A stretch of 64,000 nucleotides of DNA from the IMG/VR virus record IMGVR_UViG_3300020577_004566. One strand, 5' to 3'. Source of the DNA: an uncultured virus (IMG/VR IMGVR_UViG_3300020577_004566) (taxonomy: Duplodnaviria > Heunggongvirae > Uroviricota > Caudoviricetes). Below the pieces are notes generated by a model that was given only the letters and a program-made list of their open reading frames with translations, was not told where the DNA came from and did no database searches. Below, piece by piece: positions 1,451-58,578 of this stretch. Numbering within the stretch: position 1 is the first letter of the stretch; every line of letters begins with the position of its first letter. Position numbers and translations under genes: made by a program.

Positions 1451-1757
1451 CGCGATCAACTTCCGTGTAGTAGAAATCCCAGATAACCTGCTGCTTGATA
1501 GACTCTACCCAATAGACTACCTGCCTTGCAAGGTTATCAATGTGATTATTATCCCGTAAAAGCTTTAATTCCAGCCACCTCTTGTATTCCCCAGTTGAGT
1601 GAAAATAGCCGTCCTCCGAGTGAACCGGCTTAGCTCCGAACTTGTTTTTTCCTGGAGAAAGAAGATCGATATCAATCGGTATCGTGCATGCTGGATCAGC
1701 GTAGAGCCTCTGCAGAGGCTTTTCAGCATTTGACGACTTTCGCCTGGACTTTGACAC
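1299..1757 (-). CDS. DUF1064-like PD-(D/E)XK nuclease / putative resolvase
   Basis: DGYFHSTGEYKRWLEL...LARQV...DFYY...VEDYKG pattern. Confidence 0.7.
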   Translation of the reverse strand: MSKSRRKSSNAEKPLQRLYADPACTIPIDIDLLSPGKNKFGAKPVHSEDGYFHSTGEYKRWLELKLLRDNNHIDNLARQVVYWVESIKQQVIWDFYYTEVDRDGNKKEIVEDYKGAVTQAYRKNAKWFRHDYPRIELREVRKGKSSKRYRRW

Positions 1758-1971
1758 GATAGCCTTTCAGTGAATAGTTGTGCCCTTCCTTACAGATGAT
1801 TCCGCGCGCAGCTAAAGCGCGAAAAGTAGAGGCTACATTAAGTCTCTGTTTCTTTTCGCGCTTCGCCAGCGACTCACCGATTTCCCTGATAGTTCCCCAT
1901 CGACCAAATCGACGGGCAAATCTGGTCATTTCGGCAATGACAGTTTTTTCACGCGGATACAGCTTCTCCAT
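1723..1971 (-). CDS. Small winged-helix protein resembling the LexA DNA-binding domain
   Basis: GTIREIGESL...VASTFRALAARGII pattern; start codon lies inside a motif-B palindrome. Confidence 0.55.
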   Translation of the reverse strand: MEKLYPREKTVIAEMTRFARRFGRWGTIREIGESLAKREKKQRLNVASTFRALAARGIICKEGHNYSLKGYRVKVQAKVVKC

Positions 1972-2584
1972 GATTCATTTTGTATCATATTTACTCTAAA
2001 GAATCCAGATAGCTATCTATCTGTTCTTTGATCAATCGTAGACTAGGAACGTCAACCGCGCCGTTGTGCAAATTGAGTCGCGACGAAAGACTCTTGATCG
2101 CGCGCAAGCGCCGGTCATGCCTCAGCTTTGACACGATAGCTTCGTCAAGTTCATCAAGAGATATCATCGGCCCGGCTTTGGCCGACAACTGAGAGACGAT
2201 CTCTTTTTCCTTCTCTCCCTTGACCGCAAAGGCCAAAGCGTTCAGGCCCTCCACAAAATCAACCGTAAAATCATCGGGCCAGTCAATCTTTCCGCCCCAT
2301 GATCCTACGATCATCCCAAGATAAAACGCCTCTAGGAATGACCTTTGCGAATCATTCATGATTGATGCAGTTTCCACGGCTCTCCTTCTCCTTTTGATGG
2401 ATTTCGACCGCCTGAACAAAACTCCCAAGGCAACCCATGAAAGCAAAGATTGCAACCCATATCGAGATAAATCCCAAGACAATAGGCTGAGCGTAATTGT
2501 AGATCAGCCATAGCACCAGAGCGGCGCTAGGCAGGAATATCAGCGCACACACCAGAGATATAGCCAGCAGACCGTAGACACGAC

Positions 2585-3217
2585 TCATAAGACTCCCTTG
2601 GCCCGAAGGCTCCTTCGGTACTTTCTTGGGAATGCCCAAGCGCCCTGCTTTTTGCATCGCTTCCTGAACTTGTGAATCAGTCGCATGTGGACTAGCGACA
2701 GCGCCGGTTCATCATTGTCTTTGTCGCTCCACAAGTCCCACCAAATCTTGTCCCAAGGCCCACCGGCGATTTCATCCTCCCAAGCATCACCCCAATGGAT
2801 TGTTACTTTGGGATGCGCTATGGAATCGCCGCAAAGCTTGATTACGTTTTTATCACGCTCGATCACATCGATTGACGTAACGTTGTCATTGACCAGAAGC
2901 CCGCGAACCACGCAGCCAAGTCCAAGGCCACCGACAAGAATCTTGCCTTTAGCCTTCATGCAAAAATCGAGATGAGTCCGCAGCTCGCAAGGCATATCGT
3001 TCATTACTACTTCGCCCGGAAACGCGCTATTCATCAGAGAATCGTTAGTGAGTCGATAAAGAAACGTGTACGATCCAGGGCAACACTCCCTGCCATGCTT
3101 AATGGCTATCTTAAAGGCATCCTCTCCGCTGATCACTCTCTTTCTGACAAACCACAAACCGGCGTCACCGGCTGGGATGGAATCAGCCCTCATTGCAGAC
3201 AAAATGCGGTCTTTCAT
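2585..3217 (-). CDS. Class I SAM-dependent methyltransferase (spermidine-synthase-like fold)
   Basis: ILVGGLGLGCV motif I, IDVIE, GDAW, D..WWD. Confidence 0.75.
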   Translation of the reverse strand: MKDRILSAMRADSIPAGDAGLWFVRKRVISGEDAFKIAIKHGRECCPGSYTFLYRLTNDSLMNSAFPGEVVMNDMPCELRTHLDFCMKAKGKILVGGLGLGCVVRGLLVNDNVTSIDVIERDKNVIKLCGDSIAHPKVTIHWGDAWEDEIAGGPWDKIWWDLWSDKDNDEPALSLVHMRLIHKFRKRCKKQGAWAFPRKYRRSLRAKGVL

Positions 3218-3256
3218 TGATTAGCCTCTAGCTTGATCATACTGAATAGGAATGAA

Positions 3257-3748
3257 CTATTCAACCGACCAGTCTATAGAATCTCTGATTTCGTCGGCGC
3301 TGCCCGGCCAATCGTCTTCGGAATCATCAATGCTTTCAGCGTCACCATAAGCCCGCTCAAGATCATCGGCAATTCTGTCACACGCATCGGCGCGTTCATT
3401 AAGCAAGTCGATAGTTGGTGAGCCGCCAGAAAACGCGCTTTCCATGTTACTCGCCTTTTCTCTGCAATCGTCGGCGAGAGAGCGAATCTCTTCCGCAGCA
3501 CTGGACAGATCGGCAGCAAGAGCCTCCATGTCATCGGCATTATCAACATCGATTGCGCTTATCCGTTCCTCAAGCCCTAGTACGGTTGAAAGGAACTCTG
3601 ATTGAGTCAACTGACTTGGCCTTGGGCGAGTCAGGCTTACTTGCTTTCCGCCGCGACGAAACTTCCACCAGTAGTAGCTGTCGCCTTTTTTGATGCCAGC
3701 CGCCTTGTTGGACTTGCGCGCTTTCTTGACAAAATGAACTTTAGGCAT
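3257..3748 (-). CDS. Hypothetical phage protein (basic N-terminus, acidic coiled C-terminus)
   Basis: Clean ORF coupled to the helicase stop. Confidence 0.65.
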   Translation of the reverse strand: MPKVHFVKKARKSNKAAGIKKGDSYYWWKFRRGGKQVSLTRPRPSQLTQSEFLSTVLGLEERISAIDVDNADDMEALAADLSSAAEEIRSLADDCREKASNMESAFSGGSPTIDLLNERADACDRIADDLERAYGDAESIDDSEDDWPGSADEIRDSIDWSVE

Positions 3749-5501: not shown

Positions 5502-5700
5502 GCGTCACCACTCGCATAGAAATCGCCAGTGCCGAACTCGAATCAGCTCCCTCCAGTCACCGTCTTTGACTGGCCATGCACCCTACACCTTCTGGCGAAA
5601 ATTGGATCAAGCAGACCTGTGTGCATCTCGTACTATGATACTTGCAGAACCAGCCGACCGTAAGCGTTGCCGCGCCGATCCGTCTTACTTGATCCAATGC

Positions 5701-5997
5701 TCATTCAACTACCGCTAAAACAAACTCTTCCCTGATTATTGATAGGGTTTCCCCGGCCCATTCAAAGTCCTCGGCTCCGTAACTTCCAAAAAGAACTTTT
5801 TGCCCGACCTTCACGGACATGGGAATGAGTTTTCCATCCTCACCCTTTTCTCCAGGGCCTACGCCGACAACCGTGCCACGGTACTGCGTTCGTTGGGCGC
5901 TGTCAGGGATAAAAATCCCACCCTTGCTCACCTTCTCTTTGTCGTCGCGCTTAATGATCACGCGATCATTCATAGCAACCAGCTTGCGTCCATCCAT
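5701..5997 (-). CDS. groES: Co-chaperonin GroES
   Basis: DRVIIKR..EKVSKGGIFIPDSAQ..GTVVGVGPG..SVKVGQKVLF. Confidence 0.95.
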   Translation of the reverse strand: MDGRKLVAMNDRVIIKRDDKEKVSKGGIFIPDSAQRTQYRGTVVGVGPGEKGEDGKLIPMSVKVGQKVLFGSYGAEDFEWAGETLSIIREEFVLAVVE

Positions 5998-6022
5998 TGC
6001 ATTCTCCTTGTTAAAATGCCAA

Positions 6023-6095
6023 AGGTGCGGACGGGAATCGAACCCGTAACGTCAAGCTTGGAAGGCTTGCACTCTGCCAGTTGAGTTACCACACC
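6023..6095 (-). tRNA. tRNA-Gly(TCC), no encoded CCA
   Basis: GGTGTGG acceptor, D arm ACTC/GAGT, anticodon arm CAAGC-CTTCCAA-GCTTG, T arm ACGGG-TTCGATT-CCCGT. Confidence 0.9.
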
Positions 6096-6098
6096 AAA

Positions 6099-6194
6099 AG
6101 CCCGAAGCTGGAATTGAACCAACACCCTCCTCCATCTCCATCCGTACGCGATGTGCAAACGATAGAGGCGCTCTGCCATTAGAGCTATTCGGGC
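6099..6194 (-). tRNA. tRNA-like gene with a 30-nt insert in place of the 7-nt anticodon loop
   Basis: Acceptor GCCCGAA/TTCGGGC, D arm GCTC-TAATGGCA-GAGC, T arm GTTGG-TTCAATT-CCAGC. Anticodon stem CCTCT/GGAGG encloses 30 nt. Confidence 0.75.
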
Positions 6195-6228
6195 CAATTA
6201 GCCTCGCGCGAGGCTAATTAAAAGACAC

Positions 6229-7263
6229 TTACTTACCCTGTGCCGTTCGCTTAGTCACCCACCCATCCTCCGTGTCGTCGGCGACGGCGAAAGGCTGATA
6301 GAGGTCAAGAGCCTGAACAATGTCATCCAAATGAGTTGCCAGCTCCTTGGGGATATGCTTTGCCGATTGCTTCTTGAGGAGCTTCTTGAATCCGCTGGCA
6401 TAGTCTTTAAGTTGTTCGCGAAGGATGCTGAATTGCTCACGATCCTCAAAGACTCCCAATAGGCGCTTTGGCACTTCCTTGTTTTTGCCATCCTTGAGAA
6501 CTGGCCCTGCGGCCTCCTTTGCCTCTTTGTCAAGCCGCGCCTTAGCTGCTTTAAGGGTCTTGCATTCCTCATTCTTGACGAGTGCCAGCGCTGCTTTCTG
6601 CGTTTCATGATCAAACTCAACAATGAAGTTGGCATCGTTGGCACTGACAATATCAGCGTCCAGTGCCTTCCAGAGAGCTGGTATGCCCTTCTCCCTGACG
6701 CGCTTAACACGCTCCATCAGGGCAGTGCTAACGCCAGCCTCTTTGGCCTCTTTCTTCGCTTTCTTGCCTTCTCCTGGAGCAGCGCGCTTAGCTTTCTTTT
6801 TCGCCTTCTTAGGCTTCCCTTCGCCATCGTCGTCATCGGCTGGTGGAGCATCGTCCTCTACATCCTCTTCCGGCGCTGCATTTGCAACGCGCATCGCCTT
6901 TTCTTCCTCGTCTTTCATTTCAAGATACAAGACTGCGGCGCGAGAAGGGGCGAGGTGACGATGGCAAATCTCTGACTTGGACAAACTCCAGCATTCAGGA
7001 TCAGAGATTTCAATGATTTCAACAGGAATCGGAACTCCAGCTTCACGCGCCGCCTTGATACGGTGACGACCAGAAACCACAGCGCCACTGCCGTCCTGAA
7101 CAAGGATCGGATGGCGGATTCCGTTCACCTTAACGTCTTCCAAGAGCCGCTGATAATCAGCGTCGCTGTGCGCGTCCGGCTTGGTGCAGGACGCATGGTA
7201 AGTGACCTCCTTCATCTTGGCCGGATGCCACGTAGTTTCCTTTACGACTTTGAACGAACTCAT
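6229..7263 (-). CDS. ParB N-terminal domain protein
   Basis: LLEDVKVNGIRHPILV...VVSGRHRIKAA ParB/Srx motif, then an acidic/basic linker and an HTH-like segment. Confidence 0.85.
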   Translation of the reverse strand: MSSFKVVKETTWHPAKMKEVTYHASCTKPDAHSDADYQRLLEDVKVNGIRHPILVQDGSGAVVSGRHRIKAAREAGVPIPVEIIEISDPECWSLSKSEICHRHLAPSRAAVLYLEMKDEEEKAMRVANAAPEEDVEDDAPPADDDDGEGKPKKAKKKAKRAAPGEGKKAKKEAKEAGVSTALMERVKRVREKGIPALWKALDADIVSANDANFIVEFDHETQKAALALVKNEECKTLKAAKARLDKEAKEAAGPVLKDGKNKEVPKRLLGVFEDREQFSILREQLKDYASGFKKLLKKQSAKHIPKELATHLDDIVQALDLYQPFAVADDTEDGWVTKRTAQGK

Positions 7264-7295
7264 GCCATTCTCCTTGCTTAAAGGTTAAGTGATTG

Positions 7296-8279: not shown

Positions 8280-8301
8280 TGTCATTCTCCTTGTGATTCC
8301 C

Positions 8302-8329
8302 ATGATACAAGATGAATCATGGGCGTCAA
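8302..8329 (-). promoter_or_regulatory. Sigma-70-type promoter for the ERF-ParB-tRNA-GroES-helicase operon, overlapped by motif B
   Basis: TTGACG-16 nt-TATCAT on the minus strand. Confidence 0.6.
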
Positions 8330-8360
8330 GTATTTTGATTAGCCTCCGTAGAGGCTTTCG

Positions 8361-9159: not shown

Positions 9160-9160
9160 T

Positions 9161-9206: not shown

Positions 9207-9262
9207 CTAAAAAGGGAAAGAATTATCAAAATAATCCTTTCCCTGTCAGATTACCCTGAAAA

Positions 9263-9840: not shown

Positions 9841-9883
9841 AAAGAAAGAAAGCGCAGAGCATCCGTAGAGGCTCTGCGCTTTC
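9841..9883 (-). terminator. Intrinsic terminator built on a motif-A copy
   Basis: GAAAGCGCAGAGC...GCTCTGCGCTTTC hairpin followed by TTTCTTT on the minus strand, just after the stop at 9891. Confidence 0.7.
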
Positions 9884-10983: not shown

Positions 10984-11499
10984 CTACCGGCAAGTTGAGC
11001 AAGTTCCCGACAAAAACGACGGCTGAAAATAGCCGCCCGGCGAAGGCCTCCATTCCACGGAAGTGAAATCTATCACCTTGCGTTCGCCTGGAATGAAATT
11101 GACTGTCTTTTCTACTTCCTGACACTGTCCATTTCTACACAAGGAAGCCTTAAAAGTGTACGTTCCGGAAACGCCAACCCAATCGGGATGAGTACGGAAC
11201 AATCGGCTTGAGCCTGTCTGCTGTGTAGCCGCTCCATTGATCGTGATCACGGCGTCATCAGGACAGCGGACTTCATAGGAAGAAACGTCGCTACGGGTAA
11301 TTAGATCGGCAAGAGCGTCCTGCGGAACTGGATTAGCCTCGCGCGAGGCTTTCGTCTTGGCTGGAGTGTCAATGTGTCCAGGAGGCAAAACATCCTTTGT
11401 GATCGATCCGGGGGCCACTGGTTGCCATCCCGGAGGCCTTGGCTCATCGCCGAAAGCAACAGAAACAAACAGCAGACACATGACGGCTGAGAGTCTCAT
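10984..11499 (-). CDS. Secreted protein with a TIGR03000-like planctomycete domain
   Basis: Signal peptide; VRCPDDAVITING..TQQTGSSRLFRT...YTF...GERKVIDF. Confidence 0.75.
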   Translation of the reverse strand: MRLSAVMCLLFVSVAFGDEPRPPGWQPVAPGSITKDVLPPGHIDTPAKTKASREANPVPQDALADLITRSDVSSYEVRCPDDAVITINGAATQQTGSSRLFRTHPDWVGVSGTYTFKASLCRNGQCQEVEKTVNFIPGERKVIDFTSVEWRPSPGGYFQPSFLSGTCSTCR

Positions 11500-11575
11500 A
11501 GATGACTCCTTGGAAAATGGTATCCCGCCGCCCACACTGACAACGGGATACCATAAGCCCGGTTTTGGCAACGGG

Positions 11576-13552: not shown

Positions 13553-13626
13553 GCCGGGGGATAGGATTTGAACCTATGACCTTCAGGTTATGAGCCTGAT
13601 GAGCTTCCAGACTGCTCCACCCCCGG
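13553..13626 (-). tRNA. tRNA-Met(CAT), initiator-like body, no encoded CCA
   Basis: CCGGGGGTGGAGCAGTCTGGAAGCTCATCAGG-CTCATAA-CCTGAAGGTCATAGGTTCAAATCCTATCCCCCGG. Confidence 0.9.
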
Positions 13627-16265: not shown

Positions 16266-16846
16266 GATTAGCCTCCGTAGATGCTTTCGCGGAAAACTTA
16301 CCCTTGCAACTGGAAAATTATTGTATAGACTAAGCGAACCAAAAGAAAGAACCCCGAAGGTGTGTCAGTCTTCGGGGTTCAAGCTAGGCTGATGTAGACA
16401 GCCGCCTCTAGTCGTATTCTTACGCCTCCTGGCATCTCCTGTCAACTCCATGCACTAATAATTCTTTGGCCACAAGCCGCCCCTTGGCACAAAGGGTGAC
16501 GCTAGGCTGATCCGGACTCCCTTTCTCCGGGCCTTCAAATGGGCAACGACAGGGCGCGTAAACGCGAGACGTGCAATCTGCATTGCCCTGATATGGTAGA
16601 CACAACACGGTCAGGGGTATCGAGATAGTCCTTTGCAGCGTTGACGGGCGGTTAAAGTGCATGTAAACGTACAGCCAACCATGCCGGATCAAGCAGGCTC
16701 CCTCAAAGCTATACCGAATGATCTTCCATTCCCGCTTTCATGGATGAAAATCCGTGATCGCGGGGGTGATGCGCGCCCACCGCTCTGCTTCCCGAATAGC
16801 TTGAAATCAGATAGGATACATCAACCAAAGAACAAGGAGAACAATC

Positions 16847-19391: not shown

Positions 19392-19769
19392 ATTTACCTT
19401 GCGGCCATTACCAGTGCAACTGTAGTTACCGACATAAAGATTGATATTGCCGTTTCCCCTGGACAGCACCAGAAGGCAAAGACAAAGAAAGCAATAATAC
19501 CGACTACTGTAGAGCCGATAATGATCTTGCTTTTGATTTTCATCTACTCATCTCTCCAAAGAGGTCGATTATCGGTTTCAGGGTTACGCGGAACCTGACC
19601 TGATCCAGGGCACACAGACCGGCACATTTTTGGGTAATCGTGCGTAGGCACTTTTCCCGGAATTGGATTTTTCCTTTTCTTTTCCTCGGCAGCTTGATCG
19701 TACTGCCATCCGCAATGAGGGCACATGCTCATAAATCACTCCCCATTTCAATTAGCCTCTACAGAGGCT

Positions 19770-20420: not shown

Positions 20421-22916
20421 CTATCCCACCTTGTAGTTGGCGGCAAATCCTTTTCGCTTGTCGCTGCCATCTACATGGAAATCTTCGTCCAAAGTAATGC
20501 CATATTTAAGGGCAAGACCACGATATTCCTCGATTCCATTCGTGCAGTGCCAGATTATACCTTCCTTACGGACGTTTCGGCGCTCACCCAACAAAGGCCA
20601 CACCCACCGATTACCTATTTCACACTCGCCTTTTTCGTCCTTCCAGGGCATCACGCCAAAGTGCTGGCACATAATGTGATTGTAATGCAATTCCACAACA
20701 GGCGCGTAACTGTTCCGGCCCTGCAGGTCGCGATAAGCACCGCTATCAAACCACTTGTTCACATTAAGCAGGCAACATTCTGATCGCACATAGAGCCGTG
20801 TATCATTGTCGATACAGTTGTTTGTTCCAGTGGCATGACCGGACGCCAGCAGGCCAGCAGCGCCATCCTGCAGCCACCTGTCGATATTGACGATATGCCG
20901 ATGACTCAGCTTGCAAACGACGTCCAGCTTTTCGACCTTACCCCACTGAATGGCTTTCCAAAAAACGGTAGAATCCCCACGATGGTGCCCATAGTTCTCC
21001 GGATTGGGCCAATACTTAACGTGGGGATATTTCTTAGCAAGATTCTGGTGAGCAATCTGCTTGGCGCTTCCAGGAACGCTATCATCGCAAAGCAGTATCG
21101 GGACGCCGCCGCATTTGTCGCCAATAATCTGTATCTGCAGCTCAGCCAGCCTAGGAAGATTGTAGCACCCCAGCGCCACGCCGATGCGCTCCCAATTAAA
21201 GCATCTCGACACAGCCCACGCAAGCTTATCCCCAAGCACAGTAGACTCAAGAGAGCATCCACACAGAGAGCAGGCGTCGATATCTTTGTTTCTGAACTGG
21301 CACTTGTTGCACTTCTCGCGCCGATGCGCCTTTTCGTCTGCAGGCACCAGCCTAGAGCCGTTGGCAACATGCTCCGCCAGCGACGATAAGTAATTGGCCG
21401 ACCGCTTAAAGAATGATGGTAGCTCCGGCTCAACATTAAGAAATGGAACCACATCAGCACTAAGAGCGTAAACAGAGACTGAGTGAGCGCGCTCAATCAG
21501 TGCCCAGCCATACTTGACCGCCGCTTCGATGATTGCCTTTTCAACGCCCGGAAACAGCTTGCCCACGTCGTGAAACATGATTACGCCATTCTTGACGAGT
21601 AAGGGCAATACTGCCTCTATATCATTCGCCACGCTATCATAATCATGGTCACCATCAATAAGGATCGTATCGAACTTTTCCGTTATGCTCTTGGCCGATT
21701 CGCTGGCCTCGCCTGGAATCAGCTTAAGAGGACACTTGCAGCGCCAGCCGATAGACCGCTGAATCTCTTCAGTAGAGAAGCCGAATCCGTCAGGATCGAA
21801 TCTATCCAGACAGGTCACCGACTTAGCTACAGAGCCAGCGATGGCAGCGCTGTAGCCGCCGTATGTGCCAAGCTCAAGATATCGATTGCCCTTGGCATAC
21901 TTCCTGACAAGCTGAGACTCCGCGTAGGTCATCCACTGACTTCCAGGCAGGTCAAGAGGCAGCTCCCAGCCTGGATGGATATCGGGGTCTCCTAGCGAAA
22001 GCATCTGTAGAGGCTCTGCGATTTCTCTCAGTCTGCGCTTGAGCCAGTCAATGCGATGCGAATAAGGCGCAGTCTTGCCGTTGACCATACCGAACCCTGC
22101 AGCATGCCAGATCATGACAGAGCCAGTCTCTTTATTCGGCCTGTCTCTATCTATCCACCACTGCCAGTTATACGCCCTCTTGAGATTCACCCAATTGAGC
22201 TTTTGCTTAAAGATATTGATGTTTACAAGGCTCTGCTCTGCGCAGTGACTTTCAAGGAATGGCTTCTTGGGAGGATCGAACATTCCTTTGTGCCGACGAC
22301 TACAGACGATCACTCCGGAATTGAGGCACCACGGGATTTCAACCGGCTCATGACCTTGCGACTCCTGGAGATGCTTGTACTCGTTCTCCAGCCATTTTTC
22401 GACCGTGCTGGCAGCTATGGCCGCGTAGTCATCGTGCATGCCAATGCATGATTCAGGAACGATATCGAATAGGCTTGGACATTCAGGTGACACGACTATG
22501 TCAATATCAAGAAAGATGATTCGCTCATAGTGATCAAGGTAGTTGCCAGCCTGGAGTTTTTGGATCAGCCCGAACTGAGTGTTGTCGCCACTGATTACAT
22601 GGAAATCAGCTCCTATACGATTCGCATACGCGCGTAGATTGTCGCCCGTCACCGCGTGCATAAGCCTGCCTTCGTGATTGACGGCACATGTAATAACAGC
22701 ATACTTACTGGACGTGCATAGCTTGAGCTTGGGAAGATAAGGAGGATTCACCCACACCGGCGTTTTGATGCCTACATCATTATCCCAAATGGCGCGTCGA
22801 TTGATGCTTTCCGTATCTTCGCCAACAGCCCACTTGTGGTGATGGCCGTTGTGATATCGCTTGTGGCGCTCACACCAGTTTTCTGCGTTGCCTTTTTTTG
22901 TCAGGACACAAATCAT
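20421..22916 (-). CDS. Multidomain protein: GT8-like glycosyltransferase, SAM methyltransferase, Cys cluster and a second GT-A-like domain
   Basis: IIFLDIDIVV/LNSGV/EQSLVN; YLELGTYGGYS/IDGDHDY/IMFHD; CNKC..CSLCGC; ILLCDD. Confidence 0.8.
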   Translation of the reverse strand: MICVLTKKGNAENWCERHKRYHNGHHHKWAVGEDTESINRRAIWDNDVGIKTPVWVNPPYLPKLKLCTSSKYAVITCAVNHEGRLMHAVTGDNLRAYANRIGADFHVISGDNTQFGLIQKLQAGNYLDHYERIIFLDIDIVVSPECPSLFDIVPESCIGMHDDYAAIAASTVEKWLENEYKHLQESQGHEPVEIPWCLNSGVIVCSRRHKGMFDPPKKPFLESHCAEQSLVNINIFKQKLNWVNLKRAYNWQWWIDRDRPNKETGSVMIWHAAGFGMVNGKTAPYSHRIDWLKRRLREIAEPLQMLSLGDPDIHPGWELPLDLPGSQWMTYAESQLVRKYAKGNRYLELGTYGGYSAAIAGSVAKSVTCLDRFDPDGFGFSTEEIQRSIGWRCKCPLKLIPGEASESAKSITEKFDTILIDGDHDYDSVANDIEAVLPLLVKNGVIMFHDVGKLFPGVEKAIIEAAVKYGWALIERAHSVSVYALSADVVPFLNVEPELPSFFKRSANYLSSLAEHVANGSRLVPADEKAHRREKCNKCQFRNKDIDACSLCGCSLESTVLGDKLAWAVSRCFNWERIGVALGCYNLPRLAELQIQIIGDKCGGVPILLCDDSVPGSAKQIAHQNLAKKYPHVKYWPNPENYGHHRGDSTVFWKAIQWGKVEKLDVVCKLSHRHIVNIDRWLQDGAAGLLASGHATGTNNCIDNDTRLYVRSECCLLNVNKWFDSGAYRDLQGRNSYAPVVELHYNHIMCQHFGVMPWKDEKGECEIGNRWVWPLLGERRNVRKEGIIWHCTNGIEEYRGLALKYGITLDEDFHVDGSDKRKGFAANYKVG

Positions 22917-25999: not shown

Positions 26000-26039
26000 G
26001 GCATTCTCCTTGTGAACCCAATTAGCCTCCGTAGAGGCT

Positions 26040-29300: not shown

Positions 29301-29327
29301 TAGAGCCTCTACGGATGCTCTGCGCTA

Positions 29328-34759: not shown

Positions 34760-34786
34760 TCAATTAGCCTCCGTAGAGGCTCTGCG

Positions 34787-38357: not shown

Positions 38358-38663
38358 TCATTTTGAATCATGAGACAACGGCTTTGCTCTGATATTTGCT
38401 AGAGCCTCCGTAGAGGCTTTCGTCTCTTCGTAACTGACCATATCACTTTCAATGGCGCTGCTCGATTGAGCGCCCATCATGTAACCTCTATCAAATGCTT
38501 CTTGCGCAATCTTTACTGATCCTTTGTAACATGTCCAGGCATCGTCAGTACGCATGGCTCCAACGCCCGGAAAGTATTTCGATTTCATCCACTGTATCCA
38601 CGCTCTAAAATCATCAGGCATCAGTCCTTCGGGATTCCAGGGATAGAAATACTTCCGGGTCAT
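38358..38663 (-). CDS. Hypothetical protein whose 3' end carries motif A and motif B
   Basis: 101-aa ORF coupled to the upstream stop. Confidence 0.55.
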   Translation of the reverse strand: MTRKYFYPWNPEGLMPDDFRAWIQWMKSKYFPGVGAMRTDDAWTCYKGSVKIAQEAFDRGYMMGAQSSSAIESDMVSYEETKASTEALANIRAKPLSHDSK

Positions 38664-40784: not shown

Positions 40785-41058
40785 TGGCCTAATTGCAGCA
40801 CCTCTAGGTGAGGTGTCAATTTGATGAAAGGAGCGGCTATGATAACACCAGAGGAGCTTGCCGAACGCATGAAAGCAGAGATACTTTACGATATGTCAAG
40901 AGGTACGGTAGATTTCAATGGTCTTCGTTGTTTTCATGCGGCTCACCTTCGCATAATTAGATGATTCCATGATACAAAATGAATCATGAAACGACAATGG
41001 GCATGGCCAAAAAAGCCACGCCCATTTGCGCAGAGCCTCTATAGAGGCTAATTGAGTT

Positions 41059-46955: not shown

Positions 46956-46972
46956 TAGAGCCTCTGCGGATG

Positions 46973-47692
46973 CTAATTGATTTCCGTATGAAGGCCGATC
47001 AATTCTTGCGTCGATGACGCTGCTTTTGTGACCAGCCGGATAGCTAATAGCGTAGCAAAAGACAGGTCAGCGACCACAAGGCCAGACTTATTCAGGGCAC
47101 CGTATCCCATCGGGAAGAATCGGTAGAATCCAGCCGTACTATTGTTGAAATCGTTGTCAGTTTCCGCGTATGTGTCAGCCCATTCTATTGTGCTTGAAGA
47201 AAACGTTTGCGAGTTGACAAACGGGTCAGTCGTCTGAGACGCCAAAGCAAGTGATCCAAGCGTCATCGTGAAATTGGCAGTTCCAATGCGCTTCCAGCCC
47301 GTGTAAGTGTTAGCCGACTGCGAAGAACCGACAGCCTTCACGTACGGCATGGAGTACATGCCAACTTCCCAAACTTGCGTCTGTCCATCGGCACCAGCGA
47401 CAGAACAGAACTCAAGCCCCAGCATTTTTTCGTCTGCACCTGGACGATAGCCATAGATGCCATTGCCAAGTAGGACTGGCGCATCATTCGGCTTGAGTGT
47501 CGCCAATGGCGTGTACGTGGCCTCATCAAGGATCATTGGCAGCGCAGTAGCGCCATTGGCTGTCGGCCACGCGAGAAGCTTTGGCGAATCGCACGCGCGA
47601 AGACGGTGAACCATATCGCGACGGGGATAATTATCAATCGGCATAAGATCAACCTCGTAGTTGTTGGCTGATCTTATCAGGAACGCCATCAA
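46973..47692 (-). CDS. Hypothetical, possibly virion, protein
   Basis: 239-aa ORF, Thr/Ala-rich. Confidence 0.55.
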   Translation of the reverse strand: MMAFLIRSANNYEVDLMPIDNYPRRDMVHRLRACDSPKLLAWPTANGATALPMILDEATYTPLATLKPNDAPVLLGNGIYGYRPGADEKMLGLEFCSVAGADGQTQVWEVGMYSMPYVKAVGSSQSANTYTGWKRIGTANFTMTLGSLALASQTTDPFVNSQTFSSSTIEWADTYAETDNDFNNSTAGFYRFFPMGYGALNKSGLVVADLSFATLLAIRLVTKAASSTQELIGLHTEIN

Positions 47693-48567
47693 CTTGCAAA
47701 GGCTCTTTTTCGATACAGATTGACCGCCACAGCCAAGATTCCCTCGAATAGGTAAATATCCTGCTCCATAACAAAGACCAGCCTGCGAGGGTCATAAGCT
47801 TCATCAAGAACTGATCCAACACTTCTTTTTGCTATGGCATGGGCTAATCGATCCTTACGACTGCGTAGCTGGTCAATAGCTTCGCTACCGGCAATGATGC
47901 AATCCCTAAGAACCTTGACGAGGTCATCGTGTTTACGCCGGAAGAATAGCCGCCGAAAATACCCGAACGCTTTCAGTTCATCGGTAGCGCATGACAGGCT
48001 AATCATTGTTGTTGCCGTCGTCTTGTTCATTCTTCTTTCTCCTGAATACCTCCGTAGAGGCTAATTCACTGGAATAGATTCGCCACGGCGCATAGACGAG
48101 AATCTCTATCGATTCTCCAGGCATGAGCAGGTAAACATGGAAGCCGCGCGACGATCCAAAGAGATGCCGCGCGGCTTCAGTCTTGTTAGAACGTGATTTC
48201 TTTGTTGAACGTGATAACGACATGGGCCTCAACCTTGATAGACGTAGTCTTTAAGGTTACCTCGACTAGTGCATCTTCGCGACGCGAAGCCTCTAACATC
48301 TCCTGCATGGCTGTCTTATCCTTCTTGAGGATTCGCTTTCTTCTGGAATACGGCAAGACATCATAGCCGCTTTCGCTTCATCGGCATTCTTAACAAGCGC
48401 CGAAAGGTCACTTGACGATCCAGCCGACCCAACGCCAATCCAGTTATACCCAACTAACTGGCCTTTATCATCAAGAGTCCAGCCAATAACCTTTCTTCCC
48501 CATTTGTCGCACGGTTCATATGTGTTCAGCCACTCCATTGCATTCTCCTTGTTCGATAAAGTTAAAA

Positions 48568-50190: not shown

Positions 50191-50235
50191 AGCAACCTCC
50201 GTGTTTACTATTAGCCTCCGTAGAGGCTAATTACT

Positions 50236-52839: not shown

Positions 52840-52873
52840 GCTATCTCCTTGTCAATTAGCCTCCGTAGAGGCT

Positions 52874-55433: not shown

Positions 55434-56311
55434 GTCGTCGGCGTATTTCTTGAGTCTTTCGGCTCCACGCATGGCTGATTGTCTCCTGAAAAGATAGTGA
55501 CCGTGGTTTCAGTCACGATTTCATAAAAAGCTACACCGCCACCGTGGCAGTAATCGCATTCTGGATTAGGGTTGAATATCTGCGCTTTGTCGGCTGGCAA
55601 AATATAGTCTGTCAGCGCAGTACATATACATGCCCGCATCGCTCTTTCATGATTCACGTTCTTTTTGATAACTCTGCTCATCTGGTTGGTTCCTTATAAG
55701 TGAGGGTAATGACTGTCTGGACATTGCGGCCAACATCCCAAATTGGTTCAGTCTTCATGGTCATCAAAGCGCCATTGGCCGTAGCCGTTATAAGATCGCC
55801 TGCAAGCTTATTGATTGACTCAACTACTTTGGCTCTTTCGTTTTCGGCAAGCTTCTTTTTGTGGCTCTCCATCCAACAAGAAGCAGCTTCCAGGTATTCA
55901 CGCAAAGAAACGCTAGTTACATGAGGTTGCCCCTTCCACCAATTAAACTGTCCTGCAGTGCAAACAGTCCTTCCTATAGATGAAGTCGTAACATATTCAA
56001 AGAAAACATTGCCAGAATTGGTTATAACCCTTCTGTATTCCCGCGTCTGAGTATTAAGCCAGCACTCATCTAAGTCGCCGGGCCGATCTCGTTCATTGCC
56101 CAATCCATACCTACGCCAAAGCGCATCGTTGAAAGCTTTTTCGTTTGACAGATTCAAGGTTATCAACAGAGTATTCCACGCCTCCAGAAGAACAGACAAC
56201 CATCCCGAATTGTCTTTAGTCACCCATTCATAGGTTACTTCGTTGCCCTGAATGCCAAGGCAGCGGTAATGCGCTTCGCTGTCACTGGTTCGATAGTACA
56301 CGATCAGGCTC

Positions 56312-56950
56312 CTATTTGATCAGTTCCCAGAGTTCGTAGAAAGTCTGCATAAACATGGCCTTTGATCGCGCTGGCGTCCAAGGGCATATCTCTAGGAAGC
56401 CATACGCCGCATGGTCTTCACAGCCGATAATGTTGCCCTCGCCTGGAACGCCAAGGTACTTATCCTCAGTCTTGAGCAGACTCATATCCACTATATCCAG
56501 GTCTTTCTTGTATTCGGATTCATCAGGCAATCCGAATCGTCGCCGGAATAGATCGGTAATGTAGTCGTTGACTGCATTAAACGCTGGATTAGGCCCGATC
56601 ATCTTCATTGGCCTGGACAAATCGCCTGTGTACGCCTCTGGCCCGTCGTGCAATAGCGCTGCCAGCCTGTGTATTGGCAAGCCGGTCATCATCATCGATG
56701 CCAACACGCTATGCTGAGCAACTGAATAGAACTGCTTGATCCGTCCATCGAACCGGCATTGATTGGCTAAAGAATGAGCCACGTCAACAATATCAATATC
56801 GTCTGGCGTAGCACGGAGAAGGTAGAACTTCTTGCCCGAAGGATACATCTTCACCCAGATATCCTTGTTAAGCTTCAGGAACTCTTCTGTCGTCCACACT
56901 TCGCCGGTAAATGGCTTCCCTGGCAATGCGCTTGTATTAAGTTCACTCAC
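56312..56950 (-). CDS. HD-domain 5'-deoxynucleotidase-like hydrolase
   Basis: DVAHSLANQCRF.G...FYSVAQHSV...LLHDGPEAYTGD; start approximate. Confidence 0.88.
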   Translation of the reverse strand: MSELNTSALPGKPFTGEVWTTEEFLKLNKDIWVKMYPSGKKFYLLRATPDDIDIVDVAHSLANQCRFDGRIKQFYSVAQHSVLASMMMTGLPIHRLAALLHDGPEAYTGDLSRPMKMIGPNPAFNAVNDYITDLFRRRFGLPDESEYKKDLDIVDMSLLKTEDKYLGVPGEGNIIGCEDHAAYGFLEICPWTPARSKAMFMQTFYELWELIK

Positions 56951-58199
56951 TGCATGCTCCTGGATAAGTGTCCTCAAATCGCTCGTGCTGATCGCCGATC
57001 AATTTGATTTTCGAGAAGTTCTCACAACCCCTCATAGCCAGCCTCAACAGAATGTTATTTCCCGACCCCATCTGGTTGATCAGCCACCCAACGCAATGGG
57101 CGTCATGCGTCTCGTGACAAGCCATGATATACAGCGTGTCGCTCTGTATCTGCTCAGCAGCGTTGCCATTGGCAATAATGCTCTTTAGCCTGTCGATTGC
57201 TGCCGTGGTCACTGGCATCACTCCTCAATGATAATTTTACCCTTGGACTTTCCGTCTTTGTCGATTTCGGTCTTAACCATCTGCTTGCCATCATGGCCGA
57301 TGTATTCGAGAAACCCAAGGGTAGCGTCCAGCATCCATTCCCCGTAGGCATTATTGGGAAAGGATACCGCTGGCATGAACGGTACGTTTTTCGTAACCTT
57401 GTTCATGGTTCCATTGGCCACCGCAGACACCTGGACTAGCGCCATCTGCAGGACGCCCGCAAGGATGTTGCACTTTGCCGATTTAATCAGAGTATCGTAC
57501 CGTGCCTTCTGGCTTTCAGGATTCTGCAGGACTTCCCTGATATCAGCCGAATGCTTGAAGTCCTTCAGATTTACGGCCACGATATTCGCGTACTCTTCCA
57601 GGTAATCGACAACAGCCTTGTCGCCGACGACCTCTTTTGGCATTTTCTCCAATATCTCCACCAGCCAGCTCTTGGCTTCAGTCTTGTTAAGCTCCATTGC
57701 TATCTCCTGTTTTCTTGCGCCTTGGATGACCGCAAAGCGCTGCCAGTAAATGATCGGCCCTGACTATCGCTTCATCGGCTACCGCCTCGTATGTGCGGCC
57801 AAACTTATCGTCTGCAACCAGAGCCACATACACCTTGATTGCTATGTACGTCCTCAAGTCCATTCCAGGCTGAGGAGTCGTACACATGGTTTCGTTTGTC
57901 GGGAATGCTGGCATAGCGCCTAGCGCCTGTGGGTTCATGCAGTCACCTTGGATTTCAAAGGCTTACCAGTCTTTCCAAGAGTCGCCTGATACTATTCCTT
58001 GCATTTTTTCGACTTTCTTTGCTCCCATTCTTTAATCGCCTTTCGTGGACTGATCGTACACATAACAATCATATCCATACAACTACCGCACACTTCCCTG
58101 TCTCGCATCTTCGTGCAGCCGTCAAGTATTTCCTTAACGATCACACGAATTAGAGCGCCTTCACGTTTTGCCCGTTTCTGTCCAGGAGTCATAGTAGCC

Positions 58200-58529
58200 T
58201 CAATCATATTTGGTCATATTCTCCAGAGTGAGCGTTATTAGCCTCACTGGAGTTGTCTTGTATGCCGCCGCCAGCTCTACGATCACACTCAACTTGGGAC
58301 TCAGCTTGCCAGATTCCCACCAGCTAATTGTCTTCTGGTGCCCTGGAGAACGCTTGCCGAAGAATGAATCAGCTATATCCTGTTGAGACAGCCCACGCTT
58401 GGCCCGGAGAGCCACTAAAGCTAAGGCAAGGGCCATAGAAGCTATCTTCCCTTTGCCTGCCGCCTTGAGCCTTTTATGAGCTGCTGCAAGGCTTGCCTCA
58501 ATCAGGTCTTTTCTCTTCGGTGTTGACAT
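58200..58529 (-). CDS. XRE-family HTH transcriptional regulator
   Basis: LRAKRGLSQQDIA...TISWWESGKLSPKL; a motif-A copy lies 24 bp upstream of the start. Confidence 0.88.
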   Translation of the reverse strand: MSTPKRKDLIEASLAAAHKRLKAAGKGKIASMALALALVALRAKRGLSQQDIADSFFGKRSPGHQKTISWWESGKLSPKLSVIVELAAAYKTTPVRLITLTLENMTKYD

Positions 58530-58578
58530 TTACTCTCTCACATGAATAGATTAGCCTCCGTAGAGGCTTTCGGACTTG

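What the first reader, a model, noticed from the sequence alone, without database searches (positions are those of the whole stretch)
1705..58568. Genome-wide lattice of 18 palindromic sites (AGCCTC-N4-GAGGCT) at gene junctions
Seen: 18 copies of the 16-bp palindrome, 1.1-5.9 kb apart, across every functional module. Most sit on stop codons and/or ribosome-binding sites. Stops adjoin the copies at 19754, 26024, 46959 and 52858, and the copies at 16270, 29304, 34766 and 46959 supply the RBS. The copies inside ORFs (1705, 11335, 22000, 38403, 48047) fall in termini or inter-domain linkers. The only recurrent core variant is GAGGCT to GATGCT, in 5 half-sites and never compensated, which fits protein recognition of DNA better than RNA pairing. 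The spacer is always alternating purine/pyrimidine and is CGTA in 10 of 18, which reads as a cUACGg tetraloop on the transcribed strand. Known analogues: mycobacteriophage L5 stoperators (asymmetric) and parS/matS-type chromosome sites. Inference: a phage-wide silencing, roadblock or genome-organising system. Candidate binders are the XRE HTH at 58200-58529 (site 24 bp upstream of its start) and the ParB-domain protein (the longest perfect copy lies 13 bp past its stop).
Basis: partly seen in the sequence, partly recalled or inferred. Interest (0 to 1): 0.88.

Follow-up and report, generated by a model that had tools for sequence, protein, structure and literature searches.

The report
Evenly spaced palindrome array in phage
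An uncultivated sludge and freshwater phage carries 18 copies of one 16-base palindrome spread evenly along its genome, mostly between genes; they most likely serve as docking sites for a phage DNA-binding protein, but nobody has shown what such arrays do.

Summary
AGCCTC-N4-GAGGCT occurs 12 times exactly (0 expected). No other 6-N(3-6)-6 palindrome in the window recurs more than twice.

13-15 of 18 sites lie in the 8% of the window that is non-coding. Spacing is far more even than chance (CV 0.46, P about 0.0003-0.001).

Arms never co-vary. Both flanks obey the same symmetric rule in 36 of 36 half-sites without pairing with each other. One in-gene site was made by substitution. Another is kept in a 77%-identical relative with a different spacer. 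I read this as double-strand DNA sites for a dimeric phage protein. Candidates are a protein with a ParB/Noc/KorB fold and an XRE protein.

Against a purely DNA reading, the spacer is strand-biased: UACG on the mRNA in 10 sites against CGUA in 1. That gives a stable tetraloop hairpin, so an RNA role stays a serious rival.

The motif is not a host repeat in the rows that the capped scans returned. The closest known case is the unexplained 17-bp palindromes of Cluster O mycobacteriophages.

The parts
1705..1720 (-). Palindrome site with exact arms. The mRNA-strand spacer is UGCA.
   Evidence: Lies 2 nt after the stop of ORF 1723-1971. It is inside only the longest-start form of the DUF1064 ORF 1299-1757.
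6200..6215 (-). Palindrome site with exact arms and spacer GCGC. With its AATT flanks it is a perfect 24-bp palindrome.
   Evidence: Lies 13 nt after the stop of the ParB-like gene and upstream of tRNA-Gly 6023-6095.
8341..8356 (-). Palindrome site with exact arms and mRNA spacer UACG. Flanks are CGAA...AATC.
   Evidence: Lies 4 nt after a stop and 37 nt before the longest start of the Erf gene.
9858..9873 (-). Palindrome site with mRNA spacer UACG and 3' arm GAUGCU. It is the core of a 36-nt palindrome followed by a U-rich tail, so it looks like a terminator.
   Evidence: -27.4 kcal/mol. Lies 17 nt after a stop and 43 nt before the next start.
11335..11350 (-). Palindrome site inside ORF 10984-11595, with exact arms and spacer GCGC. 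It encodes K-A-S-R-E-A.
   Evidence: The 77%-identical relative P0126 has KASTEA at the same place. A divergent contig carries the CGTA form there.
16270..16285 (-). Palindrome site with mRNA spacer UACG and 5' arm AGCAUC. The arm sits where a ribosome-binding site would.
   Evidence: Lies 4 nt before the start at 16265 and 134 nt after the previous stop.
19754..19769 (-). Palindrome site with exact arms and mRNA spacer UGUA. Flanks are GCTAG...AATTG.
   Evidence: Abuts the stop at 19770 and lies 21 nt before the next start.
22000..22015 (-). Palindrome site inside the 831-aa ORF (codons 301-306), upstream of the methyltransferase domain (residues 347-451). mRNA spacer UACA, 3' arm GAUGCU.
   Evidence: The relative P0122 (82-84% identical) has other residues there and no indel, so the site arose by substitution.
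26024..26039 (-). Palindrome site with exact arms and mRNA spacer UACG. Flanks are GCTAG...AATTG.
   Evidence: Abuts the stop at 26040. An AAGGAG ribosome-binding site and a GTG follow about 24 nt on.
29304..29319 (-). Palindrome site with mRNA spacer CGUA (reversed orientation) and 5' arm AGCAUC. The arm sits where a ribosome-binding site would.
   Evidence: Lies 8 nt after a stop and 3 nt before the ATG at 29300.
34766..34781 (-). Palindrome site with exact arms and mRNA spacer UACG. The arm sits where a ribosome-binding site would.
   Evidence: Lies 5 nt after a stop and 6 nt before the ATG at 34759.
38403..38418 (-). Palindrome site inside ORF 38358-38663 (codons 82-87 of 101, K-A-S-T-E-A). 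Exact arms, mRNA spacer UACG.
41034..41049 (-). Palindrome site with exact arms and spacer UAUA.
   Evidence: Lies 9 nt after a stop and 249 nt before the start of the HTH-fused C5-methylase gene. A weak hairpin with a run of six U follows at 41033-41016.
46959..46974 (-). Palindrome site with mRNA spacer CGCA (reversed orientation) and 5' arm AGCAUC. It supplies both a stop and a ribosome-binding-site position.
   Evidence: Overlaps the stop of 46973-47692 by 2 nt and lies 3 nt before the ATG at 46955.
48047..48062 (-). Weakest member, with two mismatches in the outer arm positions. mRNA spacer UACG.
   Evidence: Lies 16 nt before the start at 48030.
50213..50228 (-). Palindrome site with exact arms and mRNA spacer UACG.
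   Evidence: Lies 7 nt after the stop of the DUF1643 gene.
52858..52873 (-). Palindrome site with exact arms and mRNA spacer UACG. Flanks are GCTAG...AATTG.
   Evidence: Abuts the stop at 52874 and lies 18 nt before the start of the N6-adenine methylase gene.
58553..58568 (-). Palindrome site with exact arms and mRNA spacer UACG. Flanks are CGAA...AATC.
   Evidence: Lies 10 nt after the stop of 58579-59058 and 23 nt before the XRE start.
6232..7263 (-). Candidate binder 1: a 344-aa protein with a predicted ParB/Noc/KorB-like N-terminal domain and helix-turn-helix domain.
   Evidence: PHROG ParB-like matches at E 1e-6 to 1e-9. Pfam ParB_N only at E 0.0034. AlphaFold model at pLDDT 88. Foldseek matches to ParB, Noc, Spo0J and KorB at E 1e-5 to 7e-4 over 225-268 columns.
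58203..58529 (-). Candidate binder 2: a 109-aa XRE-family helix-turn-helix protein.
   Evidence: Pfam HTH_31 at E 1.8e-7 and HTH_3 at E 1.7e-6. PHROG repressor or regulator matches.

Best explanation
The 18 palindromes are double-strand DNA recognition sites for a dimeric, sequence-specific DNA-binding protein encoded by the phage.

How recognition would work. Each half of the dimer reads one arm (GAGGCT, with G or T tolerated at position 3) plus two flanking positions. The four central bases are not read by sequence but must alternate pyrimidine and purine.

Placement. Selection keeps a site at least every 6 kb or so along the whole chromosome. Sites sit in the tiny gaps between genes where possible and are built into tolerant linker codons where needed.

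Candidate binders. The first is the protein with a ParB/Noc/KorB fold encoded next to the most perfect site. Inference: it would load at each site and spread, so that evenly spaced sites coat or organise the whole genome or tune transcription globally. The second is the XRE protein that has a site just upstream of its gene.

Secondary RNA effect. Every site is also transcribed. Inference: spacer orientation has been secondarily shaped at the RNA level, since UACG gives a stable hairpin and a GGAGG.

Shown versus inferred. Shown: the sites, their statistics, their symmetry, their gain and retention in relatives, and the fold of the candidate. Inferred: binding, the binder's identity and the biological effect.
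For: 1. Arm sequence is invariant with no compensatory change in 18 sites. The single recurrent variant is the same base change in either arm (3 and 2 times), which is equivalent only on duplex DNA.
2. All 36 half-sites obey the same flank rule: position +1 is never G and position +2 is always A or T. This holds in left and right halves separately. Yet the two flanks of a site are complementary at +1 in only 4 of 18 sites, against about 5.8 expected. So the flanks are constrained per half-site and not for pairing.
3. All 18 spacers alternate purine and pyrimidine. That property is the same on both strands.
4. Spacing is even: CV 0.46, P = 0.0003 against uniform placement and 0.001 against random gene junctions. 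The 3 in-gene sites each split one of the three largest gaps that would otherwise exist (my arithmetic on the coordinates, P about 0.008, post hoc).
5. Site 22000 lies mid-gene. It has no indel against an 82-84% identical homologue that lacks it, so it was created by substitution.
6. Site 11335 lies mid-gene and is retained in a 77%-identical homologue. There the peptide KASTEA matches the canonical spacer form. A divergent metagenome contig shows 25 nt at that place identical to the 8341-type site.
7. The five variant sites make poor RNA hairpins (-1.6 to -3.4 kcal/mol for the core).
8. A protein with a ParB/Noc/KorB-type fold is encoded 13 nt from the perfect 24-bp palindrome.
9. Precedent: the authors of the Cluster O study predict dimeric DNA-binding proteins for their 17-bp palindromes (PMC4351075, passages read).
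Against: - The spacer is strand-biased. It reads UACG on the mRNA in 10 sites against CGUA in 1 (two-sided P = 0.012). Counting all non-palindromic spacers the split is 11:3 (P = 0.057).
- Flank sub-families (CGAA...AATC four times, GCTAG...AATTG three times) all face the same way relative to transcription. A symmetric dimer does not need this.
- UACG closed by C-G is the most stable orientation in RNA: -10.0 against -8.2 kcal/mol.
- 13-15 of 18 sites sit right after stop codons. This also fits an RNA role.
- The flank classes are few and may reflect common descent, so 36 of 36 is not 36 independent observations.
- No binding was or could be tested.
- The ParB_N sequence match is below Pfam's threshold (E 0.0034). 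Only 7 of 47 family members match ParB_N at E 0.001 or better.
- Among the 103 window ORFs scanned, no ParA family was found.
- Site 22000 is absent in a close relative, so not every site is indispensable.
Confidence: 0.5

Rival explanations
1. The sites act as RNA. Each one, transcribed within the long co-directional operons, folds into a 6-bp hairpin capped by a UACG tetraloop just after a cistron. There it protects 3' ends or marks processing by a sequence-specific RNA-binding protein or nuclease. It could also pause or attenuate transcription, or hide the GGAGG so that translation of the next gene is coupled to the previous one.
For: - Orientation bias is 10:1 for UACG on the sense strand, which adds 1.8 kcal/mol.
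- 13 of 18 sites lie 0-17 nt after a stop. At four sites (16270, 29304, 34766, 46959) the arm sits 3-6 nt before the start codon.
- All oriented flank sub-families face the same way.
- Site 9858 is extended to a 36-nt hairpin with a U-rich tail, like an intrinsic terminator.
- Invariant arms would fit a sequence-specific RNA-binding protein.
- From memory only: T4 has very stable tetraloop hairpins between cistrons.
Against: - There is no covariation and no G-U type variant.
- 5 of 18 sites carry a pair-breaking change (A-G or C-U) at the same position, leaving -1.6 to -3.4 kcal/mol for the core.
- 8 of 18 spacers are not a known stable tetraloop.
- Flanks are constrained symmetrically but do not pair.
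- Three sites lie inside genes, where ribosomes would melt them. One of these was newly created mid-gene in its weak form.
- No T-run follows 17 of 18 sites, and a canonical terminator exists elsewhere at 9244-9213.
- No Rfam family matches.
- Even spacing that includes the in-gene sites is hard to explain at the RNA level.
Confidence: 0.27
2. The palindromes are selfish or recombination-propagated DNA. They would be short linker sequences copied between gene junctions by gene conversion or short-homology recombination (the phage encodes an Erf annealing protein). They would serve, at most, as crossover points for module exchange and would not be read by a regulator.
For: - Flank sub-families and chimeric flank combinations look like copies and recombinants.
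- Between relatives, one site differs at all four spacer bases while the arms stay the same, as if converted from another copy.
- Site 22000 arose where both flanks already matched flank classes found at other sites.
- An Erf gene lies at 7299-8303.
Against: - Site 22000 has no indel, so it is not an insertion.
- No transposase or REP-associated tyrosine transposase family was found among 103 ORFs.
- The motif is not multi-copy in any bacterial genome or other contig that the capped scans returned.
- The very even spacing and the strict arm conservation across a relative argue for selection on function.
- The Cluster O study saw few if any rearrangements at its repeats.
Confidence: 0.1
3. The sites act as single-strand DNA hairpins or extruded cruciforms. 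They would be used strand-specifically in replication priming, recombination or packaging.
For: The elements are strand-oriented and evenly spaced along a genome with one replication and transcription direction (negative GC skew throughout). A DUF1064 junction-resolvase-like gene, an SSB gene and an Erf gene are present.
Against: No primase, HUH or rolling-circle protein was recognised among the 103 ORFs. A 6-bp stem is short for cruciform extrusion. The pair-breaking variants argue against a need for pairing.
Confidence: 0.06

Closest known systems
17-bp palindromic repeats of Cluster O mycobacteriophages (Corndog group). PMC4351075, passages read.
   Same: - Dozens of copies of one short inverted repeat lie throughout a roughly 70-kb phage genome.
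- The arms are invariant and the short central spacer is variable.
- Many copies lie between genes and some lie inside genes.
- The phage is not obviously temperate.
- A ParB-like domain protein is encoded.
- Glycosyl- and methyl-transferase genes lie among the structural genes.
- The function is unknown, and the authors predict a dimeric DNA-binding protein.
   Different: - The sequence is unrelated: 7-N3-7 there, 6-N4-6 here.
- About one third of their copies lie in genes, against 3 of 18 here.
- They found no meaningful spacer orientation, while here the bias is 10:1.
- Their copies are denser at one genome end, while here spacing is significantly even.
- The phage lineage and habitat are unrelated.
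Stoperators of Cluster A mycobacteriophages (L5, Bxb1). PMC9283540 abstract seen. Also described in passages of PMC4351075.
   Same: Many copies of one short site are distributed across the phage genome, largely in short intergenic gaps. They are oriented with transcription and act on elongating RNA polymerase rather than at promoters.
   Different: Stoperators are asymmetric 13-bp sites bound by a monomeric immunity repressor of a temperate phage. Here the arms form a true palindrome. No integrase or immunity repressor of that type was seen in the window, and only the spacer and flanks are oriented.
ParB-family proteins with dispersed palindromic sites: KorB on plasmid RK2, Noc on the Bacillus chromosome, ParB-parS. 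The structures were matched. The site numbers and biology are from my own knowledge, not from a call.
   Same: These are 13-16-bp palindromes scattered over a replicon and read by a ParB-fold protein. That protein can load and spread, giving global regulation, silencing or organisation. A protein of this fold is encoded beside the best site.
   Different: The palindrome here has an unread 4-bp centre, which is more typical of small helix-turn-helix repressor dimers. No ParA partner was found. The sequence match to ParB_N is sub-threshold. No binding is shown.
Start-associated sequences (SAS and ESAS) of Cluster K mycobacteriophages. PMC3203893, passages read.
   Same: A conserved repeat sits just upstream of start codons and contains the ribosome-binding site. 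In half the cases it comes with inverted repeats. The function is unknown and the repeat is conserved across sub-clusters.
   Different: The SAS is asymmetric and strictly tied to start codons. Here the arm sits at the ribosome-binding-site position at four sites (16270, 29304, 34766, 46959), and the core is a perfect palindrome.
REP/BIME-type bacterial extragenic palindromes, and stable tetraloop hairpins between phage T4 cistrons (both from my own knowledge).
   Same: These are short GC-rich hairpins placed just after stop codons in operons. They can stabilise upstream mRNA.
   Different: REPs are host-genome repeats spread by a dedicated transposase. This motif was found multi-copy only in this phage, and no such transposase was found. 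Ordinary stabiliser hairpins vary in stem sequence and keep their pairing. These do the opposite.

Membership tests
Phage genome-wide palindromic repeat arrays (Cluster O type) | One short inverted repeat recurs many times through one phage genome, far above chance. | tested here: met
   12 exact copies against 0 expected, and 23 against 3.1 with up to 2 mismatches. The next most frequent 6-N(3-6)-6 palindrome in the window has 2 copies.
Phage genome-wide palindromic repeat arrays (Cluster O type) | Invariant arms, a variable spacer, and copies both between and inside genes. | tested here: met
   13-15 of 18 sites are intergenic and 3 are clearly inside genes.
Phage genome-wide palindromic repeat arrays (Cluster O type) | Sequence or phage relatedness to Cluster O. 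| tested here: not met
   The motif is different. Neither megablast nor tblastn with the capsid protein matched any of 50,697 phage records.
Stoperators (Cluster A mycobacteriophages) | An asymmetric 13-bp site. | tested here: not met
   The site is a 6-N4-6 palindrome.
Stoperators (Cluster A mycobacteriophages) | Sites are oriented with the direction of transcription. | tested here: inconclusive
   The arms are symmetric. The spacer is oriented 10:1 (or 11:3), and the flank sub-families are oriented.
Stoperators (Cluster A mycobacteriophages) | A temperate phage with an immunity repressor that binds the sites. | tested here: inconclusive
   No integrase family was found among the 103 window ORFs. 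An XRE protein is present. The source contig may be about 72.5 kb, so about 8 kb lie outside the window. Binding cannot be tested here.
ParB-parS / KorB-operator / Noc-binding-site systems | A ParB-fold protein (N-terminal nucleotide-binding domain plus helix-turn-helix domain) is encoded by the replicon. | tested here: met
   Model pLDDT is 88. Foldseek probability is 1.0, with E 1e-5 to 7e-4 to ParB, Noc, Spo0J and KorB over 225-268 columns. Caveats: Pfam ParB_N matches only at E 0.0034, and TM-scores are modest (0.22-0.42 on the query).
ParB-parS / KorB-operator / Noc-binding-site systems | A 13-16-bp palindromic site, with one copy next to the parB gene. | tested here: met
   The motif is a 16-bp palindrome. 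The perfect 24-bp copy lies 13 nt after the gene's stop.
ParB-parS / KorB-operator / Noc-binding-site systems | The protein binds the site, with CTP-dependent loading and spreading. | not testable with these tools
   The family alignment keeps G48, G65 and R68 invariant, and D64, R66, R101 and R102 nearly so. From memory, these lie in the nucleotide-binding motifs.
ParB-parS / KorB-operator / Noc-binding-site systems | A partner ParA-type ATPase (for partition systems). | tested here: not met
   No such family was found among the 103 window ORFs. From my own knowledge, Noc-type and KorB-type proteins do not need one for regulation.
REP / REPIN elements with RAYT transposase | Many copies in a bacterial host genome. 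| tested here: not met
   The 19-mer has 0 hits in 185,579 species genomes. All were single copies except one unrelated tandem duplication in a MAG. The scan was truncated, so absence is not proven.
REP / REPIN elements with RAYT transposase | An associated tyrosine (IS200-type) transposase gene. | tested here: not met
   No such Pfam or PHROG family was found among 103 ORFs.
Intrinsic (rho-independent) terminators | A GC-rich hairpin followed directly by a U-run on the transcript. | tested here: not met
   No T-run follows 17 of 18 sites on the - strand. The scan flags only the + strand reading of 11335 and 41034. Site 9858 alone has a long stem and a U-rich tail.
UNCG-tetraloop RNA hairpins | A C(UNCG)G loop on the transcribed strand. 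| tested here: inconclusive
   Met in 10 of 18 sites (UACG) and not in 8. The energy gain is 1.8 kcal/mol.
Structured RNA under selection for pairing | Compensatory or wobble changes that keep the stem. | tested here: not met
   There are 0 compensatory changes. 5 of 18 sites carry a pair-breaking change. No Rfam family matches.

The most novel reading that the evidence does not exclude
The palindromes are a ruler-like set of loading sites, one at least every 6 kb, for the phage's own ParB/KorB/Noc-type clamp. The clamp spreads from each site so that the whole phage chromosome is coated. That coat would compact or shelter the DNA, or set a global transcription programme, in a lytic phage with no partition ATPase. 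The same sequence, read in the mRNA, doubles as a tetraloop hairpin, stop and ribosome-binding-site cassette at gene junctions. If so, this would give a function to the unexplained palindrome arrays of phages such as Cluster O, which also encode ParB-like proteins.
Probability: 0.2. Interest if true: 0.8.

Novelty: new member of a known kind. Interest (0 to 1): 0.55.

Why it matters
Arrays of one short palindrome spread through a phage genome have been described. The Cluster O authors call theirs 'of unknown function', and I did not search for later work on them.

This example is unusually clean and offers handles for experiments:
- It has only 18 sites and two obvious candidate binders.
- Its measurable spacing rule points to a process that acts along the DNA rather than at promoters.
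- One site was demonstrably gained and one demonstrably retained in relatives.
- Its strand bias lets DNA-level and RNA-level roles be separated by simple spacer-flip mutants.

Tried and rejected
Relatives with DNA in reach:
- Megablast of 20000-44000 and tblastn of the capsid protein against 50,697 phage records gave nothing.
- IMG/VR scans with the capsid protein, the 831-aa protein alignment and the 660-aa protein found no close relative.
- The capsid alignment found 62 IMG/VR loci at only 29-39% identity. None has a palindrome array; the most frequent palindrome there has 3 copies.
- Close relatives (69-84% protein identity) exist only as proteins from assemblies whose DNA I could not fetch.

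Motif scans:
- IMG/VR gave 63 contigs, all with single hits.
All were single except L182, which has two. None resembles the window.
- The only double hit in genomes is an unrelated 732-bp tandem duplication in an Aureispira MAG.

Sequencing runs:
- No RNA holder was listed, so expression and transcript ends could not be examined.
- In one search the difference table was truncated (147 rows not shown), so site-by-site variation could not be counted.
- The 'joint' 1988 to 8341 in X7 is an alignment artefact. Its 31 inserted letters are the left flank of site 38403, which shares 20 nt with site 8341.

Other checks:
- Promoter and terminator consensus scans were at shuffle level. I did not scan 60001-64000.
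- The idea that the element supplies stops in all three frames holds in only 3 of 18 sites and is dropped.
- Isolated half-sites are not enriched: 21 and 8, against a mean of 18 for hexamers of the same composition.
- Sequence search of the PDB with the ParB-like protein gave only chance hits.
- Earlier notes of this scan held nothing on this genome or its relatives.
- I ran no complex prediction. The tool takes no DNA partner, and a homodimer pass for an XRE or ParB protein would not have changed my odds.

Full report
**1. What is there**

The pattern AGCCTC-N4-GAGGCT occurs 12 times exactly in the 64-kb window. None of 100 dinucleotide shuffles gave a match. With up to two mismatches there are 23 hits against 3.1 expected. 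The other five two-mismatch hits are at chance level.

A scan for every 6-N(3-6)-6 perfect palindrome shows that this is the only recurrent one. It has 12 copies and the next best has 2.

The window is a tailed phage genome. Almost all genes are on the - strand and GC skew is negative in all 16 bins. Genes recognised include:
- a terminase gene cut by the window ends, carrying a LAGLIDADG/intein-like insert;
- a capsid protein;
- Erf, SSB and a helicase;
- GroES, ThyX and two DNA methylases plus Vsr;
- a sigma-like factor, an XRE protein and a ParB-like protein.

The phage occurs in sludge, wastewater, river and freshwater metagenomes. It has no near relative among 50,697 phage records or in IMG/VR.

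**2. Placement**

13 of 18 sites lie 0-17 nt after a - strand stop codon and before the next start. I removed ORFs that exist only through a site or that overlap a tRNA. After that, 15 of 18 sites fall in the 8.3% of the window that is non-coding (binomial P = 4e-14; that gene set is my own curation).

Stops abut or overlap four sites (19754, 26024, 46959, 52858). At four sites the 3' arm sits 3-6 nt before the start codon (16270, 29304, 34766, 46959).

Three sites are truly inside genes:
- 11335 and 38403 are both read as K-A-S-x-E-A.
- 22000 is read as E-P-L-Q-M-L, upstream of the methyltransferase domain (residues 347-451) of the 831-aa protein.

Spacing is regular. The gaps run from 1.1 to 5.9 kb, with CV 0.46. 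P is 0.0003 against uniform placement and 0.001 against random choice among 85 gene junctions. Without the three in-gene sites the three largest gaps would be 6.4, 6.3 and 6.3 kb. Each holds exactly one in-gene site (my arithmetic, P about 0.008, post hoc).

**3. Anatomy**

*Arms.* The arms are invariant apart from one recurrent change, C to A at arm position 4. It occurs three times in one arm and twice in the other and is never compensated.

*Spacers.* All 18 alternate purine and pyrimidine.

*Flanks.* I read all 36 half-sites outward from the centre. The first flanking base is never G (A 15, C 13, T 8). The second is always A or T. Both rules hold in left and right halves separately. Yet the two flanks of a site are complementary at +1 in only 4 of 18 sites, against about 5.8 expected. 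So the flanks are constrained per half-site and not for pairing.

These features are symmetric on duplex DNA. They are what a dimeric DNA-binding protein would impose.

*Strand orientation.* Against that, the spacer is oriented. On the mRNA it reads UACG in 10 sites and CGUA in 1 (P = 0.012). Counting all non-palindromic spacers the split is 11:3 (P = 0.057). Two flank sub-families (CGAA...AATC four times, GCTAG...AATTG three times) always face the same way.

*RNA energies.* In RNA the canonical core folds at -10.0 kcal/mol, against -8.2 for the antisense strand. The five variant cores reach only -1.6 to -3.4. Site 9858 is special. It is a 36-nt palindrome (-27.4 kcal/mol) with a U-rich tail and looks like a real terminator built on the motif. 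No T-run follows the other 17 sites, and an ordinary terminator is present at 9244-9213. Rfam finds only the two tRNAs.

**4. Relatives**

DNA of close relatives was out of reach, but their proteins were not.

*Site 22000.* The 831-aa protein has an 82-84% identical homologue (P0122) of the same length. It reads EIAENRPMLSL where the window reads EIAEPLQMLSL. More distant homologues read SLPLLSL and GLPMLSL. So site 22000 is absent in the relative. It arose without an indel by changing about nine central bases. Its imperfect arm (GATGCT) and both flanks are old coding sequence. This excludes insertion of a mobile element at this site. It shows that a site was built where a partial match already existed.

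*Site 11335.* The 203-aa ORF has a 77%-identical homologue (P0126) that reads KASTEAN where the window reads KASREAN, within an otherwise variable linker. KASTEA is the peptide of the canonical UACG form. A divergent metagenome contig (run X8) joins 25 nt identical to 8338-8362, the canonical site with the same flanks, to the homologous region at 11455. So this in-gene site is retained in a relative with identical arms and a spacer that differs at all four bases.

*Distant relatives.* The 62 IMG/VR loci with 29-39% capsid identity have no palindrome array.

**5. Is it a host repeat?**

The exact 16-mer is single-copy in the following:
- 63 IMG/VR contigs;

None of these loci resembles the window. 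The single double hit in genomes is an unrelated tandem duplication. A 19-mer present at six sites has no match in 185,579 species genomes. Two scans were truncated, so this is strong but not complete evidence.

**6. Candidate readers**

*The ParB-like protein.* It is 344 aa, and its stop lies 13 nt from the perfect 24-bp palindrome at 6200. It matches Pfam ParB_N only at E 0.0034. It has 1,640 relatives at E 0.001 or better. Its AlphaFold model (pLDDT 88) matches ParB, Noc, Spo0J and KorB structures across both the N-terminal and the helix-turn-helix domains. The Foldseek values are E 1e-5 to 7e-4, probability 1.0, 225-268 columns and TM 0.22-0.42 on the query. Relatives at 59% and 51% identity keep the same length. 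From my own knowledge, proteins of this fold read 13-16-bp palindromes scattered over replicons and spread from them. That would make sense of an even spacing rule.

*The XRE protein.* It is 109 aa and has a site 23 nt before its start. From my own knowledge, the 6-N4-6 layout with an unread but shape-constrained centre is typical of small helix-turn-helix repressor dimers.

*A third possibility.* The C5-methylase carries an N-terminal helix-turn-helix.

No binding could be tested.

**7. Verdict**

I put 0.5 on double-strand DNA sites for a dimeric phage protein, kept at regular intervals, with spacer orientation shaped secondarily by the fact that every site is transcribed.

The rivals:
- An RNA hairpin role gets 0.27. 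The strand bias and junction placement favour it. The lack of covariation, the pair-breaking variants, the in-gene sites and the unpaired but constrained flanks count against it.
- Recombination-propagated or selfish linker DNA gets 0.1.
- A single-strand DNA role gets 0.06.

**8. Comparison with known systems**

- The nearest described thing is the array of more than 30 copies of a 17-bp palindrome in Cluster O mycobacteriophages. Its function is unknown, and its authors also predict a dimeric binder and note ParB-like genes (PMC4351075, passages).
- Stoperators are asymmetric and bound by a monomeric immunity repressor (PMC9283540, abstract).
- Cluster K start-associated sequences share the link with ribosome-binding sites (PMC3203893, passages).
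- T4 RegB cuts GGAG in intergenic ribosome-binding sites (PMC3014915, passages). It is a reminder that an RNA-level reader of such a motif is possible.
- The conserved inverted repeats bound by the phiC31 repressor, and the T4 tetraloop hairpins, are recalled only. My search for the former found no paper on the phiC31 repeats themselves.

This is a new member of a known but unexplained kind. Its added features are the even spacing, the strand-biased tetraloop spacer and the dual stop and ribosome-binding-site use.

Noticed in passing
window 3-884 and 62762-64000 (- strand): The large terminase gene is cut by both window ends. The part at 62765-63991 also matches LAGLIDADG, homing-endonuclease (intein-type) and Zeta-toxin-like P-loop families, which suggests a terminase carrying an intein. 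An exact-match protein lies on a 72.5-kb contig, so about 8 kb of the genome may lie outside the window.
   Followed up: partly
window 6023-6095 and 13553-13626 (- strand): The phage carries tRNA-Gly(UCC) and tRNA-Met(CAU). The tRNA-Met region has 20-100 times the contig depth of its surroundings in all four runs, with loose ends on both sides. That most likely reflects cross-mapping of other organisms' tRNAs. ORF 5970-6197 overlaps tRNA-Gly and is probably spurious.
   Followed up: partly
window 39026-40784 (- strand): A C5-cytosine DNA methylase with an N-terminal helix-turn-helix is followed directly by a Vsr very-short-patch repair endonuclease. The phage also has an N6-adenine methylase (52003-52839) and further methyltransferase-like genes.
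   Followed up: no
window 17587-22916 (- strand): Two glycosyltransferase genes and an 831-aa protein with a methyltransferase domain sit next to the structural genes. A homologue of the 831-aa protein also carries glycosyltransferase families. The Cluster O study reports the same kind of gene set between its portal and protease genes.
   Followed up: no
window 32076-33953 (- strand): The C-terminal part (residues about 500-590) of a 626-aa protein matches the 2'-5' RNA ligase/2H phosphoesterase family and the anti-CBASS Acb1 family.
   Followed up: no
window, e.g. 6000, 8283, 26002, 48541, 59063, 60595, 61054 (+ strand coordinates): A second recurrent word, CATTCTCCTTGT on the + strand, occurs 7 times. 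It reads ACAAGGAGAATG on the mRNA and is a strongly conserved ribosome-binding-site context. This shows that the host uses Shine-Dalgarno pairing.
   Followed up: no
window 12250-12747 and 16847-17485 (+ strand): The only well-supported + strand genes are an HNH endonuclease and a sigma-70 region-4 protein (a phage sigma-like factor). No palindrome site lies in or directly beside either.
   Followed up: no
window 9213-9244 (- strand): This is a canonical intrinsic terminator with a 14-bp stem and a T-run. It lies about 600 nt downstream of the terminator-like 36-nt palindrome at 9858, so ordinary terminators exist alongside the motif.
   Followed up: no
window 5704-5997 and 46140-46955 (- strand): The phage encodes a GroES co-chaperonin and a MauE/DUF1573-type membrane protein. 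More distant capsid relatives (35-40% identity) are annotated in Planctomycetota MAGs, a weak hint about the host.
   Followed up: no
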